Shown: in pieces, positions 33,982 through 55,030 of the stretch
How positions within the stretch are numbered: position 1 is the stretch's first letter
Layout of the letters: every line of letters begins with the position of its first letter
Source of the DNA: Tequatrovirus BCH953P2
Sequence record: OZ035785.1
Strand: one strand, 5' to 3'
Length of the DNA: 64,000 nucleotides
Position numbers and translations under genes: made by a program
Notes under the pieces: model-generated
What the model was told of the DNA's origin: nothing
Databases searched by the model: none
What the model saw: only the letters and a program-made list of their open reading frames with translations

Positions 33982-34455
33982 TTATTTGAATGATTTAACG
34001 TACTGAATAGAACCTTTACTATTCACAAAGGCAATTTTACCATTTTTGTTATACATGGTAGCAGTACGCTGATAGCCATAAGTTTGTTTACCAGATTGAT
34101 AACCAACTAATGCAAAATTATCTTCACCCATTTTATTCTGTTTAGCGCGAATGCGTTCATGGCCATGTGCCATAAGAACCTTAGCATCACCAGTTGCAAT
34201 GGATCTACGAGTTTTTTCATCTTCAACTGTATTAACAAAGTCGTCAAATGAATCAAATTTAGCATGAGATTTATTATACAGTTTTCCATCTACTGCATAA
34301 TTATATCCCTGTACATCCATCTCAACTTCTGTACCATCATCCAATACAGCAGTGATTTTTTGACCTTTTTTAAATTTCAAAAGATCAGTAAAAGATTCAG
34401 CAATAATTTGAGAATTAATAGCTGCTTCAGTGATAAATTCTTGATATGTTTTCAT
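33982..34455 (-). CDS. Internal (head-packaged) protein with capsid-targeting N-terminus
   Basis: 157 aa beginning MKTYQEFITEA, the conserved T4 internal-protein targeting sequence ending in Glu-Ala. Confidence 0.65.
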   Translation of the reverse strand: MKTYQEFITEAAINSQIIAESFTDLLKFKKGQKITAVLDDGTEVEMDVQGYNYAVDGKLYNKSHAKFDSFDDFVNTVEDEKTRRSIATGDAKVLMAHGHERIRAKQNKMGEDNFALVGYQSGKQTYGYQRTATMYNKNGKIAFVNSKGSIQYVKSFK

Positions 34456-38152: not shown

Positions 38153-38428
38153 TTATTTCATATTATTGAAATATTCTTCTGCGATTTCGTCGTTATCATG
38201 GTAAACTTTAGAAGACAGTTTAACATAACTTTCAGCAGTGAACATGTTAATCACAACCTTTACAGTATACCACTGACCATCTTCATTACCCATTACTGCG
38301 TAAGTTTCAAACATCGGATGATCAGGACCGATAACTTTAATATCATTCACTGTACGACCGAAATCTTCTGAAACACATTTCATAAAGAAGTTGAACAGTT
38401 CGCCGTAATTATCCATTTCATTCTCCAA
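38153..38428 (-). CDS. Hypothetical protein
   Basis: 91 aa ORF downstream of an early-promoter-like motif at 38462-38491. Confidence 0.45.
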   Translation of the reverse strand: MENEMDNYGELFNFFMKCVSEDFGRTVNDIKVIGPDHPMFETYAVMGNEDGQWYTVKVVINMFTAESYVKLSSKVYHDNDEIAEEYFNNMK

Positions 38429-38461
38429 ATTGTTTTCTGTATCAGTAGTTGATAGTTGTAT

Positions 38462-38491
38462 AGTACCATGGAAGAACAGGGATGTAAACAG
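38462..38491 (-). promoter_or_regulatory. Early sigma70-type promoter
   Basis: Minus-strand GTTTAC-N18-TACTAT upstream of the 38153..38428 ORF. Confidence 0.5.
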
Positions 38492-38622
38492 TTTTGTGAA
38501 AAAATTTTTTAAAAAGTTTTAGGGAATTCTAGGGTCAGGAGGGACAATTAAAAGGTAGGATAATATATTATAAAGGGTATAAACTAAATGATGCCCAGAG
38601 AGGCCCGGAAAGGCCTAGATAC

Positions 38623-38655
38623 CAAAAAGCCCCAACCTTTCGGCTGGGGCTAAGA
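38623..38655 (-). terminator. Terminator hairpin (repeat copy 1) after the internal-protein-like gene
   Basis: AGCCCCAACC-TTTC-GGCTGGGGCT with minus-strand T5 tail. Confidence 0.6.
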
Positions 38656-38658
38656 ATG

Positions 38659-39132
38659 TTATTTGATTTGTTTAGCAGACCAAATGCGGTCTTTAATAAT
38701 TTTTTGGATGTCTTCAACATATTCAAGAGAGTGAACATGTGGGTTATCTTTGAAACTATAAGCACGAGCTAGCTTTTGGCCTTCAGTTTTGATTATCAAA
38801 AGTTCTTTAAGAATTGCTTCATACCTAGAGATAATTCCTTTAGCAATATTTTTTTCTTGTGCTGCTTTAGGATCAGCCTTAGGAGCAGGTTTACCTGAAG
38901 CCTTTGCAAAAGCAGCTCCAGTAGCAACTAAACTTTTCCAAGCCATACTAACTGCATTCCCTGTAAATCCTTCGGCTTTCATATCACGAGCAAATTGGAA
39001 TCGTGATTCATCGGAAGCATCTTTATAGGAATATTTACCCGCGGCAATGGCAGCTTTTGCAACAGCTTGAATTTCAGTGCTAGATGCTTCATTTAACACC
39101 GCTTCATTTAAAAATTGAGCATATGATTTCAT
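38659..39132 (-). CDS. Internal-protein-like protein with capsid-targeting N-terminus
   Basis: 157 aa beginning MKSYAQFLNEA; late promoter TATAAATA (plus 39169-39176) upstream; bracketed by two near-identical terminator hairpins. Confidence 0.55.
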   Translation of the reverse strand: MKSYAQFLNEAVLNEASSTEIQAVAKAAIAAGKYSYKDASDESRFQFARDMKAEGFTGNAVSMAWKSLVATGAAFAKASGKPAPKADPKAAQEKNIAKGIISRYEAILKELLIIKTEGQKLARAYSFKDNPHVHSLEYVEDIQKIIKDRIWSAKQIK

Positions 39133-39168
39133 CTTATTTCCTGTTTTAATTCGTGGTTTTAATATACT

Positions 39169-39176
39169 TATTTATA
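39169..39176 (-). promoter_or_regulatory. Late promoter for the internal-protein-like gene
   Basis: Plus-strand TATTTATA 37 nt upstream of the 38659..39132 start, immediately after a terminator hairpin. Confidence 0.55.
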
Positions 39177-39179
39177 CTA

Positions 39180-39212
39180 AAAAGCCCCAACCTTTCGGTC
39201 GGGGCTAAGCCT
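39180..39212 (-). terminator. Terminator hairpin (repeat copy 2) closing the tRNA/stable-RNA transcription unit
   Basis: AGCCCCAACC-TTTC-GGTCGGGGCT with minus-strand T tract; near-identical to the copy at 38623-38655. Confidence 0.6.
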
Positions 39213-39254
39213 TGCGGCAACCTTGTCGGGGTTCCACCTGCTAAGGCAAGTGTT

Positions 39255-39420
39255 TGTGCGAAACGCCGGGACTTGAACCCGGTTATTAAGTAGTTGACGC
39301 TACTCAATATTTTTAAAAGGCCATATCTCGACCATATCCGAACGTTCCGTCAAAAACGCTACTCGGCTTACGGCAAAGATATTTCCTCGAATCGATAATT
39401 CGGTGCGCCGTTTCTGCTGT
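39255..39420 (-). ncRNA. Candidate small stable RNA with tRNA-like T arm
   Basis: No ORF across 39213-39493; minus-strand T-arm-like CCGGG-TTCAAGT-CCCGG (plus 39266-39282) with possible acceptor pairing about 150 nt upstream; T4 makes two small stable RNAs from its tRNA region. Confidence 0.25.
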
Positions 39421-39493
39421 GATGTAAGAGGACATCAATAAACGCAAAGATTATTAACGCAATTCCTTACTCAGGGAACATCAGTCCGACGAC

Positions 39494-40048
39494 TTACCGG
39501 TAGCGACCCGGTTTCTCATTTGGTATTTCAAATTGTGTAGATTTAGTATCTAATTTTTTAACTATGGAACTTATGTCATGAAAGAAAAACCATTCACCAT
39601 TTATATGGTCCTGATTATAAATGCTGTGCATATATTTTTCAAGTTCTACTGCATCCTGGGAATATCTAAATGATACTATTTTAAAACTTTTAAACGGTGA
39701 AAATGTATTTGCTGTTATAACTCTAACATCAGGTTCTATACTTCTTCCTATTTTATAATAATTAGGATTTGTAGTATCTACCATTATGTATACGAAAGCC
39801 TGTCGATAGCTTTTTTCTATATCAAATTCATCTTTAAATTTCAAAAGATTTAGGGCGGCAGTCCTACAAAATACTTTCCATTTTGACAAGCGTTTGGCTT
39901 CAGTCATAGAAAAGAATTTTTTCTTATCTGTTATTTTAAGAAAAGCAACATTTTCAATTAGTTCTTGTGTTATTTCAAAATTACCATGGTATATTAATCC
40001 AGCTTTTATAGCCAAATTAATTTGGTCCCAGTCTACATCACTTCTCAT
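39494..40048 (-). CDS. GIY-YIG-like (T5orf172-type) domain protein embedded beside the tRNA genes
   Basis: 184 aa; central FVYIMVDTTNPNYYKIGRS followed by E and YNQDHINGEWFFF resembles the GIY-YIG/T5orf172 core; T4 carries the homing endonuclease segB in this neighbourhood. Confidence 0.45.
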   Translation of the reverse strand: MRSDVDWDQINLAIKAGLIYHGNFEITQELIENVAFLKITDKKKFFSMTEAKRLSKWKVFCRTAALNLLKFKDEFDIEKSYRQAFVYIMVDTTNPNYYKIGRSIEPDVRVITANTFSPFKSFKIVSFRYSQDAVELEKYMHSIYNQDHINGEWFFFHDISSIVKKLDTKSTQFEIPNEKPGRYR

Positions 40049-40069: not shown

Positions 40070-40146
40070 TGGTCAGGGTGAAAGGATTCTAACCTTTAAC
40101 CTGCGGTTTAGAGGACCGCTACTCTATACAATTGAGTTACACCCCG
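40070..40146 (-). tRNA. tRNA-like element, anticodon UCU (Arg) if folded as tRNA; atypical
   Basis: Hand fold: acceptor CGGGGTG/CACCCTG, anticodon stem GCGGT/ACCGC, loop CCUCUAA, T arm AAAGG-TTAGAAT-CCTTT, 3-prime CCA encoded; D loop lacks GG and position 33 is C. Confidence 0.35.
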
Positions 40147-40272
40147 TAATTAGTTCACAGCAATACCTACTCCAACAATCAAGATGTCTTCACACGAAAT
40201 TAAGAGAAGTGTGATCAGTTCAACCCCTATAATCGCGTCAAGTAGATATTAATGTGACAACTGTCACAAGTT

Positions 40273-40347
40273 TGGCGGACATGCATGGATTCGAACCATG
40301 GACCAATTGATTAACAGTCAACTGCTCTACCACTGAGCTACACATCC
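40273..40347 (-). tRNA. tRNA-Asn (anticodon GUU)
   Basis: Hand fold of reverse complement GGATGTGTAGCTCAGTGGTAGAGCAGTTGACTGTTAATCAATTGGTCCATGGTTCGAATCCATGCATGTCCGCCA; loop CUGUUAA; CCA encoded. Confidence 0.7.
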
Positions 40348-40351
40348 AAAT

Positions 40352-40438
40352 TGGTGGGGAGTGGTGGAGTCGAACCACCCGAGTCGCAATGACAATGAAT
40401 TTACAGTCCACCCCGCTACCCCTACCGGATAACTCCCC
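40352..40438 (-). tRNA. tRNA-Tyr (anticodon GUA), long variable arm
   Basis: Acceptor GGGGAGT/ACTCCCC, loop CUGUAAA, long variable arm, T arm GGTGG-TTCGACT-CCACC, CCA encoded; 5-prime end lies in a C12 run. Confidence 0.6.
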
Positions 40439-40458
40439 CCCCCCCCTAATTCTTAATT

Positions 40459-40533
40459 TGGTGGCCCTGGGTGGAATTGAACCACCATCTGGCGATTATG
40501 AGTCGCTTGCTTGAACCTTCCAGCTACAGGGCC
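40459..40533 (-). tRNA. tRNA with CAU anticodon (Ile2 lysidine-type or Met)
   Basis: Acceptor GGCCCTG/CAGGGCC, anticodon loop CUCAUAA, T arm GGTGG-TTCAATT-CCACC, CCA encoded. Confidence 0.6.
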
Positions 40534-40534
40534 T

Positions 40535-40610
40535 TGGTGCTGATTGACGGAATCGAACCGCCGACCTTCTCATTACAAGTGAGTTGCTCTACCTACTGAG
40601 CTAAATCAGC
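40535..40610 (-). tRNA. tRNA-Thr (anticodon UGU)
   Basis: Acceptor GCTGATT/AATCAGC, D arm GCTC-AGTAGGTA-GAGC, loop CUUGUAA, CCA encoded. Confidence 0.7.
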
Positions 40611-40615
40611 AAAAC

Positions 40616-40705
40616 TGGCGGAGGCGATAGGATTTGAACCTATGAGTCGCCGGAGCGACTGCCGGTTTTCAAGACCGGTGCATTAAACCACTCTGCCACG
40701 CCTCC
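40616..40705 (-). tRNA. tRNA-Ser (anticodon UGA), long variable arm
   Basis: Acceptor GGAGGCG/CGCCTCC, anticodon stem CCGGT/ACCGG with loop CUUGAAA, long variable arm, CCA encoded. Confidence 0.75.
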
Positions 40706-40707
40706 AG

Positions 40708-40781
40708 TCTCCGCGGCAGGATTTGAACCTACGACATTCTGCTCCCAAAGCAGACGCTCTACCAAACTGAGCTACACGGAG
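40708..40781 (-). tRNA. tRNA-Pro (anticodon UGG)
   Basis: Acceptor CTCCGTG/CGCGGAG, anticodon stem TCTGC/GCAGA, loop UUUGGGA; CCA not encoded; 2 nt spacer to tRNA-Ser. Confidence 0.7.
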
Positions 40782-40791
40782 TAAATTAAAT

Positions 40792-40865
<74 letters not shown>

Positions 40866-40870
40866 AAATT

Positions 40871-40957
40871 TGGTGCGAGAAGTGGGACTCGAACCCACAA
40901 GGAAATCATTCCGCAGCATTTTAAGTGCTGTGCCTTTACCAATTTGACCATTCTCGC
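40871..40957 (-). tRNA. tRNA-Leu (anticodon UAA), long variable arm
   Basis: Acceptor GCGAGAA/TTCTCGC, anticodon stem CAGCA/TGCTG with loop CUUAAAA, long variable arm, CCA encoded. Confidence 0.75.
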
Positions 40958-40958
40958 G

Positions 40959-41031
40959 CTGGGAATAAAGGACTCGAACCTTTGCATCTAGCAGTCAAAG
41001 TGCTATGCCTTACCAACTTGGCTAATTCCCA
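40959..41031 (-). tRNA. tRNA-Gln (anticodon UUG)
   Basis: Reverse complement begins TGGGAATTAGCCAAGTTGGTAAGGCATAGCACTTTGACTGCTAG, agreeing with remembered T4 tRNA-Gln; CCA not encoded; 1 nt spacer to tRNA-Leu. Confidence 0.8.
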
Positions 41032-42044: not shown

Positions 42045-42278
42045 TTATTTTTTACGAAAAATTGATTTATTTTCTGCTGCCCATTTTTCAATAACTGCAG
42101 CCGGACCAGTAACAACAATTTTATCACCGTAATCTTCTGCGGCGAGTTGACCGAAATTATCTAATGCATCACGAAGAACTCCATGAGGCATTTCACCCAT
42201 TTTATCTTTCTTGCCAGTGTAAATAAACTCAACTTTTACATCAGAAGATTCAGCGATAAATTCTTTAAACGTTTTCAT
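42045..42278 (-). CDS. ipI: Internal protein I (head-packaged anti-restriction protein)
   Basis: 77 aa beginning MKTFKEFIAES (capsid-targeting consensus), positioned before 57B/57A as in T4; early promoter at 42309-42338. Confidence 0.6.
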   Translation of the reverse strand: MKTFKEFIAESSDVKVEFIYTGKKDKMGEMPHGVLRDALDNFGQLAAEDYGDKIVVTGPAAVIEKWAAENKSIFRKK

Positions 42279-55022: not shown

Positions 55023-55030
55023 TATAAATA
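55023..55030 (+). promoter_or_regulatory. Late promoter TATAAATA for gene 9
   Basis: Exact TATAAATA 25 nt upstream of the gene 9 ATG, after the gene 8 terminator. Confidence 0.7.

What the first reader, a model, noticed from the sequence alone, without database searches (positions are those of the whole stretch)
38600..39215. Internal-protein-like gene bracketed by near-identical terminator hairpins with its own late promoter
Seen in sequence: two copies of AAAGCCCCAACCTTTCGG(C/T)(T/C)GGGGCTAAG at 38623-38655 and 39180-39212 flank a 157 aa ORF whose N-terminus MKSYAQFLNEA resembles the capsid-targeting sequence of T4 internal proteins; a TATAAATA late promoter lies between the upstream hairpin and the start. 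Established: internal-protein loci are among the most variable in T-even phages, and repeated promoter/stem-loop elements have been proposed to mediate cassette shuffling. Inference: this is a modular insertion carrying a head-packaged effector of unknown target.
Basis: partly seen in the sequence, partly recalled or inferred. Interest (0 to 1): 0.6.

Follow-up and report, generated by a model that had tools for sequence, protein, structure and literature searches.

The report
Unrecognised third internal-protein cassette locus
A small late gene of a T4-like phage, bracketed by two copies of one terminator hairpin, most likely encodes a protein that is packed into the phage head and injected with the DNA; it sits in a gene slot that T2, T4 and T6 have lost, so databases call it only "hypothetical".

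Summary
Two 36-nt copies of one terminator hairpin (38619-38654 and 39174-39209) flank a 157-aa minus-strand ORF (38659-39132). A perfect TATAAATA late promoter follows the upstream copy.

The window is a Tequatrovirus, 99.5% identical to phage teqskov. The site lies between e.8 and rnaC, downstream of the tRNA cluster. It is neither of the two recognised internal-protein (Ip) loci.

Related phages show four clean states with junctions at the hairpin:
- empty: T2, T4, T6, PST
- 157-aa gene only: this window
- a different 187-aa gene only: RB14
- both in tandem: G9062

Directly compared, the two proteins match only in their first 10-11 residues. That leader resembles the Ip capsid-targeting leader (MKTYQEFIAE) and ends in the prohead-protease motif L-x-E|A.

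The mature protein is basic and evolves under purifying selection (dN/dS about 0.1). Its homologue in Yersinia phage fD1 was detected in purified virions, in a low-specificity dataset.

Synonymous divergence matches that of the flanking genes. The cassette is therefore old, and the empty sites are probably deletions between the hairpin repeats, not an insertion here.

Packaging, cleavage and target remain untested. I class it as a new member of known kinds: an Ip-like protein in a PeSL-like cassette.

The parts
39174..39209 (-). Upstream (rnaC-side) copy of the 36-nt repeat. It is an intrinsic terminator hairpin: stem-loop 39206-39183 (AGCCCCGACC GAAA GGTTGGGGCT), T-run 39182-39178. It ends the tRNA/rnaD/rnaC transcript.
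   Evidence: The same hairpin is the single copy in T4 between e.8 and rnaC.
39169..39176 (-). T4-type late promoter TATAAATA, 2 nt after the terminator T-run and 36 nt upstream of the ATG.
   Evidence: The junction GGGGCTTTTTAGTATAAATA is identical in Klebsiella phage KP1 upstream of its homologue. A perfect TATAAATA also directly follows the hairpin in ESh15 and PSD9.
39139..39142 (-). Shine-Dalgarno-like AGGA, 6 nt before the ATG.
   Evidence: Sequence read.
38659..39132 (-). 157-aa ORF (17.2 kDa, stop codon included), member of phrog_2280. Predicted all-helical: three-helix N-domain (residues 18-71), Pro/Ala/Lys linker (72-87), helical hairpin (88-154).
   Evidence: dN/dS 0.06-0.18. 511 phage records encode a relative, and every annotated record listed calls it hypothetical. 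The homologue fD1 g140 was detected in virions.
39088..39132 (-). Leader, codons 1-15: MKSYAQFLNE|AVLNE|A. It holds a putative capsid-targeting sequence and two L-x-E|A prohead-protease sites. The second site arose from a 15-nt tandem duplication.
   Evidence: The leader is the only part that aligns directly with the 187-aa cassette protein.
38619..38654 (-). Downstream (e.8-side) copy of the 36-nt repeat. It is the terminator of the ORF: stem-loop 38651-38628 (AGCCCCAGCC GAAA GGTTGGGGCT), T-run 38627-38623. It begins 7 nt after the stop codon.
39259..39519 (-). Context: rnaC (about 39259-39395) and rnaD (39402-39519), the stable RNAs at the end of the tRNA operon.
   Evidence: Alignment to annotated T4 rnaC and rnaD: 134 of 137 and 117 of 119 identical.
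38153..38488 (-). Context: e.8 (38153-38416) with its early-promoter-like site (38488-38460). This is the next transcription unit after the cassette.

Best explanation
The element is a self-contained late-gene cassette: terminator, TATAAATA promoter, ribosome-binding site, ORF, second copy of the same terminator. It occupies a hyperplastic slot between the end of the tRNA/rnaC operon and gene e.8 of a T4-like phage.

Proposed working of the protein:
- Its leader resembles the capsid-targeting leader of T-even internal proteins. I infer that the leader takes the protein into the prohead core.
- I infer that the gp21 prohead protease then removes the leader at L-N-E|A. This would leave a basic protein of about 15.5 kDa that is injected with the DNA.
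- By analogy with Ip1, Ip2 and Ip3, its most likely job is to neutralise a strain-specific host defence at the moment of DNA entry, for example a Type IV restriction (GmrSD-type) variant.

Proposed working of the DNA: the two 36-nt hairpin copies insulate the unit transcriptionally. They also provide direct-repeat homology. Recombination between them deletes the cassette and leaves one hairpin, which is the state in T2, T4, T6 and PST. Recombination with a co-infecting relative can restore or exchange cassettes.

Shown: the anatomy, the allelic states and their junctions, the locus specificity of the hairpin, purifying selection, conservation of the leader, and conserved synteny.

Inferred: packaging, cleavage, injection, anti-defence function, and the recombination mechanism.
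For: Cassette anatomy.

Four allelic states with junctions at the hairpin:
- empty in T4 and T6, PST and T2
- 157 aa only, in the window
- 187 aa only, in RB14
- both in tandem, in G9062 and in two IMG/VR contigs

Hairpin distribution: 1-2 places per genome in the rows listed (3 in two Mosigvirus records), 1184 places in 725 records.

Leader:
- PSSM rank 3 of 581, behind only the Ip4 and Ip6 homologues.
- Directly compared, the 157-aa and 187-aa proteins match only in residues 1-11 (BLASTP, hhalign). Sharing nothing but the leader is the stated hallmark of Ips (PMC12373910).
- The leader persists in relatives only 25-50% identical.
- Its codons differ synonymously (TAT/TAC, TTA/TTG, GCT/GCC). 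This points to selection on the peptide, not the DNA.

Other leader-bearing genes at the same site: Mosigvirus 206-208 aa, Gaprivervirus 127 aa, Jiaodavirus 177 aa.

Protein properties: mature pI 9.6, against 9.0-9.65 for T4 IpI*, IpII* and IpIII*. dN/dS 0.06-0.18.

Virion detection: fD1 g140 (96% identical) scored as particle-associated at the strict threshold (PMC8309999 Table S3).

Recombination model: direct repeats of stem-loop regulatory elements flanking single ORFs, and their excision as mini-circles, are documented for PeSLs (PMC2839356; PMC4122927).
Against: - No experiment shows packaging or cleavage of this protein.
- The fD1 virion preparation scored 113-137 of 277 phage proteins and 672 host proteins as particle-associated. 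These include DenV, NudE and lysozyme, so the specificity is low.
- The leader differs from the canonical one at positions 3, 5, 6, 8 and 9. Its PSSM score (9.2) is far below that of named Ips (35).
- Fold searches gave no informative match, so nothing supports any particular target.
- Strong purifying selection is not the signature of an arms-race gene, although Ips appear to vary by replacement rather than by substitution.
- In Dhakavirus PSD9 the same hairpin-promoter-hairpin slot carries a membrane protein with no leader. The slot is therefore not exclusive to Ip-like cargo.
- Named ip genes (ipI, ipII, ipIII) show no TATAAATA within 75 nt upstream, unlike this gene.
- Peptides of the Klebsiella-phage homologue were not found in the held supplements of a Jiaodavirus virion proteome. 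Those files may be truncated.
Confidence: 0.62

Rival explanations
1. The protein is an ordinary late, non-packaged accessory protein. On this view the N-terminal resemblance to Ip leaders reflects a shared, efficient translation-initiation region, or a recombination-homology patch at the 5' end of cassette genes. It would not reflect capsid targeting.
For: - The leader is a weak match to the canonical CTS: PSSM 9.2 against 35.
- The slot can carry non-Ip cargo, as in PSD9.
- The virion proteomics is unspecific.
- No fold or family assignment was obtained.
Against: - Leader codons vary synonymously while the peptide is kept.
- The leader ends in L-x-E|A exactly where the conserved domain begins, in every family member.
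- In the window, the leader pattern scan flagged only two other ORFs that carry the full leader, both homologues of named Ips.
- The protein is basic, like the Ips.
Confidence: 0.2
2. The protein is packaged through the leader but has a structural or DNA-condensing role in the head (core scaffold or charge neutralisation). It would not be an injected anti-defence effector.
For: - The mature protein is basic, with a Lys/Pro/Ala linker and a coiled-coil-like C-terminal hairpin.
- Purifying selection is strong.
- The gene has long residence at one locus across several genera.
Against: - The gene is dispensable in nature: T2, T4, T6 and PST lack it.
- All three T4 Ips, once suspected of a merely structural role, turned out to be specific GmrSD inhibitors (PMC12373910).
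Confidence: 0.12
3. The twin hairpins are only two independent terminators of common descent and have no role in gene flux. The presence/absence pattern would then arise from ordinary homologous recombination in the long conserved flanks (e.8 and rnaC).
For: - The flanks are more than 95% identical among Tequatroviruses, so exchange of whole alleles through them is easy.
- The 187-aa cassette carries a different distal hairpin.
- The hairpin occurs at only one locus per genome, unlike the dispersed PeSLs.
Against: - Empty sites keep exactly one hairpin, with the e.8-side flank on one side and the rnaC-side flank on the other. No scar is visible, in two genera.
- The tandem arrangement in G9062 has a hairpin at every cassette boundary.
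- A distant relative (L024) again shows hairpin plus GGTATCTA on both sides of its gene.
Confidence: 0.25

Closest known systems
T-even internal proteins (T4 IpI, IpII, IpIII; Ip4-Ip7 and others of T2, T6, PST, RB phages)
   Same: - About 10-residue N-terminal leader of the form M-K-(T/S)-(Y/F)-x-(E/Q)-F-(I/L)-x-E, followed by a small residue.
- L/I-x-E protease motif.
- Small, basic and dispensable.
- Bodies that match each other poorly or not at all behind a shared leader.
- Alternative genes at one locus in different phages.
- The window's own Ip4 and Ip6 homologues show the same leader.
   Different: - It lies in a third site (e.8|rnaC), not at ipI or ipII/ipIII.
- The leader has diverged (S3, A5, Q6, L8, N9).
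- It has a private TATAAATA promoter and terminators on both sides, whereas ipI-III show no TATAAATA within 75 nt.
- Every annotated record listed calls it hypothetical, and its PHROG (2280) has unknown function.
- Packaging, cleavage and target are untested.
PeSL / PmSL cassettes of T4-type phages (Arbiol 2010, PMC2839356; Comeau 2014, PMC4122927)
   Same: - Direct repeats of a stem-loop-containing regulatory element flank a single accessory ORF.
- A close relative has one element and no ORF.
- The element sits in a hyperplastic region.
- The same deletion and mini-circle logic applies.
   Different: - The repeated unit is only the terminator stem-loop plus T-run (36 nt).
- The associated promoter is the late TATAAATA, not a sigma-70-like early or Mot-dependent middle promoter.
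- There are two copies per genome at one locus, not a dispersed family.
- No mini-circle evidence exists here.
Terminator of the T4 tRNA/rnaD/rnaC operon
   Same: The upstream hairpin is the orthologue of the single T4 hairpin about 50 nt past rnaC.
   Different: Here it is duplicated, and the second copy terminates the cassette gene.

Membership tests
T-even internal protein (CTS-bearing, head-packaged) | N-terminal capsid-targeting leader of about 10 residues resembling MKT(Y/F)xEF(I)xE | tested here: met
   5 identical and 3 conservative positions of 10 against IpII/IpIII. PSSM rank 3 of 581 ORF starts, z about 3.9, though well below named Ips. The leader is conserved across the whole family.
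T-even internal protein (CTS-bearing, head-packaged) | Prohead protease (gp21) site L/I-x-E followed by a small residue at the end of the leader | tested here: met
   L8-N-E10|A and L13-N-E15|A. The only other L-x-E lies inside a predicted helix at 108-110. Sequence motif only; cleavage was not observed.
T-even internal protein (CTS-bearing, head-packaged) | Physically present in the mature head in processed form | tested here: inconclusive
   The homologue fD1 g140 is listed as particle-associated by LC-MS/MS. However, 113-137 of 277 phage proteins were also listed, and no N-terminal peptide data are given (PMC8309999). No peptides were found in the Jiaodavirus supplement.
T-even internal protein (CTS-bearing, head-packaged) | Injected into the host with the DNA | not testable with these tools
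   Needs labelled-virion or immunoblot experiments.
T-even internal protein (CTS-bearing, head-packaged) | Dispensable; varies between close relatives by replacement or loss; bodies share little or nothing beyond the leader | tested here: met
   Four allelic states. The 157-aa and 187-aa proteins align directly only over the leader. Weak transitive links and shared phrog_2280 membership suggest very distant common ancestry.
PeSL (promoter-early stem-loop) cassette | Composite element: stem-loop immediately followed by a sigma-70-like early promoter, SD and ATG | tested here: not met
   The stem-loop is present, but the promoter is the late TATAAATA. No -35/-10 pair lies between the hairpin and the ATG.
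PeSL (promoter-early stem-loop) cassette | Many dispersed copies concentrated in hyperplastic regions | tested here: not met
   Two copies in the 64-kb window. One or two places per genome in the rows listed (three in two Mosigvirus records) across 725 records.
PeSL (promoter-early stem-loop) cassette | Elements flank ORFs that are present or absent between close relatives, with one element left at empty sites | tested here: met
PeSL (promoter-early stem-loop) cassette | Excision as mini-circles during infection | not testable with these tools
   Needs inverse PCR on infected cells.
Intrinsic (rho-independent) terminator | G+C-rich stem-loop followed by a U-run on the transcribed strand, placed at the end of a transcription unit | tested here: met
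   10-bp stem, GAAA loop, U5. Folding energy -22.8 and -24.9 kcal/mol. One copy is 7 nt after the ORF stop, the other about 50 nt after rnaC. Termination itself was not measured.

The most novel reading that the evidence does not exclude
The e.8|rnaC slot is a third, previously unrecognised internal-protein locus of the Tevenvirinae. It would be ancestral to at least Tequatrovirus, Mosigvirus and Jiaodavirus, and lost from the three classical lab phages T2, T4 and T6. It would encode a modular family of injected proteins (phrog_2280: leader, helical N-domain, Pro/Lys linker, helical hairpin). Their targets would be host defences not yet matched to any phage inhibitor, either further GmrSD subtypes or a different class of early-acting immunity. 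The terminator-plus-late-promoter element would be a late-gene counterpart of the PeSL shuffling element.
Probability: 0.35. Interest if true: 0.65.

Novelty: new member of a known kind. Interest (0 to 1): 0.45.

Why it matters
In 2025 all three T4 internal proteins were shown to be specific inhibitors of different GmrSD Type IV restriction enzymes (PMC12373910). The authors predicted that the other proteins of "the two Ip loci" act on the same immune system. This work points to a further slot that carries leader-bearing proteins. Of 771 database records that match this stretch, 511 encode a relative of the 157-aa protein and 165 a relative of the 187-aa protein. The slot has gone unnoticed because T2, T4 and T6 are empty there.

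The slot supplies ready-made natural controls: empty, single and double alleles in otherwise near-identical phages. It also supplies candidate anti-defence genes that could be tested directly by the published screening approach. These proteins may help explain host-range differences among therapeutic T4-like phages.

The locus is also a clean example of terminator direct repeats marking the boundaries of gene gain and loss. It extends the PeSL idea to late transcription units.

Tried and rejected
- Pfam and NCBIfam gave no significant family for the 157-aa protein. PHROGs gave only phrog_2280, function unknown.
- The AlphaFold model (pLDDT 76.8, all-helical) was searched against the PDB and BFVD. 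It returned only self-family hits and non-significant helical bundles, so no function can be read from the fold.
- The profile search of 1.84 billion representatives found only 13 relatives, all phage-like.
- Rfam found nothing at the hairpins. It found only tRNAs and spurious antisense hits.
- Tryptic peptides of the Klebsiella-phage homologue were not found in the held supplements of a Jiaodavirus virion proteome.
- An IMG/VR scan with the rnaC-side flank returned only 6 loci, so allele frequencies rest on the GenBank phage collection.
- Repoila et al. 1994, the original Ip-locus paper, is not held. Whether it mentions this site could not be checked.
- I first read the 157-aa and 187-aa proteins as wholly unrelated, then softened this. 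Direct comparison shows only the leader. Intermediate sequences and shared PHROG membership suggest very distant homology. That BLAST was run without composition correction, so linker and coiled-coil bias is possible.
- A signal-peptide reading was rejected because the leader is not hydrophobic.
- 'Recent insertion into this phage' was rejected on the dS comparison.

Full report
**What is in the sequence.** The window is a Tequatrovirus. The 1.5 kb around the finding is 99.5% identical to Escherichia phage teqskov, and 771 phage records match it.

The ORF lies on the minus strand at 38659-39132. It encodes 157 aa starting MKSYAQFLNEA. The repeated motif occurs exactly twice in 64 kb, at 38626-38654 and 39181-39209, with none expected by chance even at 3 mismatches. 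In register the repeat is 36 nt, 92% identical, 555 nt apart.

On the transcribed (minus) strand each copy is a 10-bp G+C-rich stem with a GAAA loop and a run of five T. Both are called as terminators by the consensus scan. They fold at -22.8 and -24.9 kcal/mol. The two copies differ by an AG/GA swap in the stem that keeps all pairs.

TATAAATA sits at 39176-39169, 2 nt after the T-run of the upstream hairpin and 36 nt before the ATG. An AGGA lies 6 nt before the start. The downstream hairpin begins 7 nt after the stop codon. The unit is therefore a fully insulated, monocistronic late transcription unit.

**Where it sits.** Mapping against annotated T4 places the cassette between e.8 (38153-38416) and rnaC (about 39259-39395) and rnaD (39402-39519). 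This is the end of the tRNA operon; ten tRNA genes follow at 40070-41031.

This is not one of the two recognised internal-protein loci. The window's homologue of Ip4 lies at the ipII/ipIII position (33982-34455). Its homologue of Ip6 lies at the ipI position (42045-42278).

**The locus is polymorphic, with junctions at the hairpin.** T4 has one copy of the hairpin between e.8 and rnaC and nothing else. The window differs by exactly one 555-bp unit: promoter, ORF and a second hairpin. A five-way alignment shows four states:
- empty, in T4 and T6
- the 157-aa gene only, in the window
- a 187-aa gene only, in RB14 (ORF136c, MKTYAEFLTEA...), with its own different distal hairpin
- both genes in tandem, in G9062, with a hairpin at every boundary

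PST and T2 are also empty. Two IMG/VR contigs carry both genes. By their tblastn coordinates, PYps47T and PsgM02F also carry the two genes next to each other.

In the GenBank phage collection, 511 records encode a relative of the 157-aa protein and 165 encode the 187-aa protein. Every annotated record listed calls them hypothetical.

The hairpin is not a general terminator. A 46-nt query found 1184 places in 725 records. The rows listed show one or two places per genome, and three in two Mosigvirus records that I did not follow up.

**The slot is old and spans genera.**
- Mosigvirus AlbertHofmann carries a 154-aa orthologue at the same position, again between two hairpin copies. Mosigvirus LF82-4 is empty, with a single hairpin.
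- Jiaodavirus KP1 has a 177-aa relative downstream of its tRNAs. The junction GGGGCTTTTTAGTATAAATA is identical to the window's.
- Mosigvirus ESh15 and ST0 have a 206-208-aa leader-bearing gene after hairpin plus TATAAATA.
- Gaprivervirus TH55 has a 127-aa leader-bearing gene.
- Dhakavirus PSD9 has the same hairpin-TATAAATA-ORF-hairpin arrangement, but its cargo is a 184-aa membrane protein without the leader.
- More distant relatives from metagenomes also lie just downstream of tRNA genes.

Synonymous divergence of the 157-aa gene between the window and AlbertHofmann (dS 1.32) is like that of the flanking e.6 (1.09) and trna.2 (0.94). Against G9062 it is 0.16, compared with 0.19 for e.6. The cassette has therefore diverged in step with its flanks. 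The occupied state is best read as ancestral. The empty sites are best read as deletions between the direct repeats, not as an insertion in this phage.

**The protein.** dN/dS is 0.06-0.18, so this is a real gene under constraint. It has no Pfam or NCBIfam family, and its PHROG (2280) has unknown function.

The AlphaFold model (pLDDT 76.8) shows a three-helix N-domain, a Pro/Ala/Lys linker and a long helical hairpin. It has no informative match in the PDB or BFVD. The predicted mature protein is basic (pI 9.6), like T4 IpI*, IpII* and IpIII* (pI 9.0-9.65).

**The leader.** T4 IpII and IpIII begin MKTYQEFIAE|A. The ORF begins MKSYAQFLNE|AVLNE|A.
- A matrix built from six named Ip leaders ranks it third of 581 ORF starts in the window. 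Only the Ip4 and Ip6 homologues rank higher.
- In direct comparison, the 157-aa and 187-aa cassette proteins match only over residues 1-11 (BLASTP) or 1-10 (hhalign). This is how Ip1-3 are described: no homology other than the N-terminal leader that directs packaging (PMC12373910).
- Intermediate sequences and common PHROG membership hint at very distant common ancestry and domain shuffling within the family.
- The leader persists in relatives of 25-50% identity. It always ends in L-x-E just before the conserved domain.
- Its codons vary synonymously. This argues for selection on the peptide rather than on the DNA.
- A 15-nt tandem duplication gives this allele two L-N-E|A sites.

**Direct evidence for packaging is thin.** In Yersinia phage fD1 the 96%-identical g140 is listed as particle-associated by LC-MS/MS. 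So are DenV, NudE, lysozyme and about half of the proteome, plus 672 host proteins (PMC8309999). I count this as weak support. A peptide search in a Jiaodavirus virion proteome supplement found nothing.

**Mechanism proposed.**
- Shown: the terminator-promoter-ORF-terminator anatomy, the allele series, hairpin junctions, locus specificity, leader conservation, purifying selection and ancient synteny.
- Inferred for the protein: late synthesis; targeting to the prohead core through the leader; removal of 10 or 15 residues by gp21; injection with the DNA; and inhibition of a strain-specific defence. The last step is by analogy with Ip1, Ip2 and Ip3, each of which blocks one GmrSD variant (PMC12373910).
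- Inferred for the DNA: homologous recombination between the 36-nt repeats deletes the unit. Exchange with co-infecting relatives restores or swaps units. This is what was proposed, and shown by mini-circle detection, for PeSL elements (PMC2839356; PMC4122927).

**Comparison with the known.** The protein works like, and probably is, a T-even internal protein. It meets the sequence-level criteria, but the physical ones remain untested. The DNA arrangement works like a PeSL cassette but fails two defining features: it has a late rather than an early promoter, and two locus-bound copies rather than a dispersed family. It should therefore be called PeSL-like, not a PeSL.

The literature I could read speaks of two Ip loci (PMC12373910). 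It names Ip4-Ip7 only at those loci (records of T2, T6 and PST). I found no source that calls this site an Ip locus, but I could not read Repoila et al. 1994.

**Verdict.** This is a new member of known kinds. It has practical value because it adds testable candidate injected anti-defence proteins and natural allele series. Interest is moderate.

Noticed in passing
window 39494-40048 (-): A 184-aa ORF with a MUG113/T5orf172 (GIY-YIG-like) domain and weaker homing-endonuclease PHROG hits lies between rnaD and tRNA-Arg. T4 has no gene there, and its segB lies one tRNA further on. The ORF's 3' end overlaps the 5' end of rnaD by about 25 nt. It may be a different mobile endonuclease occupying the tRNA region.
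   Followed up: partly
window 39088-39117 (-): A 15-nt tandem duplication inside the leader (TTAAATGAAGCG GTG TTAAATGAAGC) gives LNEA-V-LNEA, that is, two candidate protease sites. Relatives such as the Mosigvirus 154-aa form have a single site.
   Followed up: partly
window 33982-34455 (-) and 42045-42278 (-): The pattern scan found only two other leader-bearing ORFs in the window. They are homologues of Ip4 (DUF7412, phrog_3155) and Ip6 (phrog_8111). No orthologue of T4 IpI, IpII or IpIII was picked up by that scan.
   Followed up: partly
L022 1418-1972 (Shigella phage PSD9, Dhakavirus): The same slot, with the same hairpin on both sides and a perfect TATAAATA, carries a 184-aa predicted membrane protein (phrog_2143) that lacks the Ip-like leader. 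The slot therefore accepts other late cargo.
   Followed up: partly
L005 and the LF82-2 record (Mosigvirus): Two Mosigvirus genomes show three places matching the 46-nt hairpin query, where other genomes show one or two. The extra sites were not located.
   Followed up: no
L002 3056-3529 (phage Aplg8, KT184308): The 157-aa ORF is intact in this record but has no CDS annotation, although rnaC, rnaD and a terminator are annotated next to it.
   Followed up: no
window 55023-55030 (+): One other TATAAATA of the 11 in the window also directly follows a hairpin plus T-run of different sequence. It lies upstream of a 288-aa ORF that I recognise from memory as gp9. Terminator followed by late promoter may be a recurrent arrangement.
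   Followed up: no
window 38600-38617: A second small inverted repeat (GGCCCGGAAAGGCC on the plus strand) lies just past the distal terminator. It is conserved with substitutions in T4, T6 and RB14. Its role is unknown.
   Followed up: no
window 40070-41031 (-): The window has ten tRNA genes, including Asn, Tyr and Met, against eight in T4. The content of the tRNA cluster varies among all the relatives examined.
   Followed up: no
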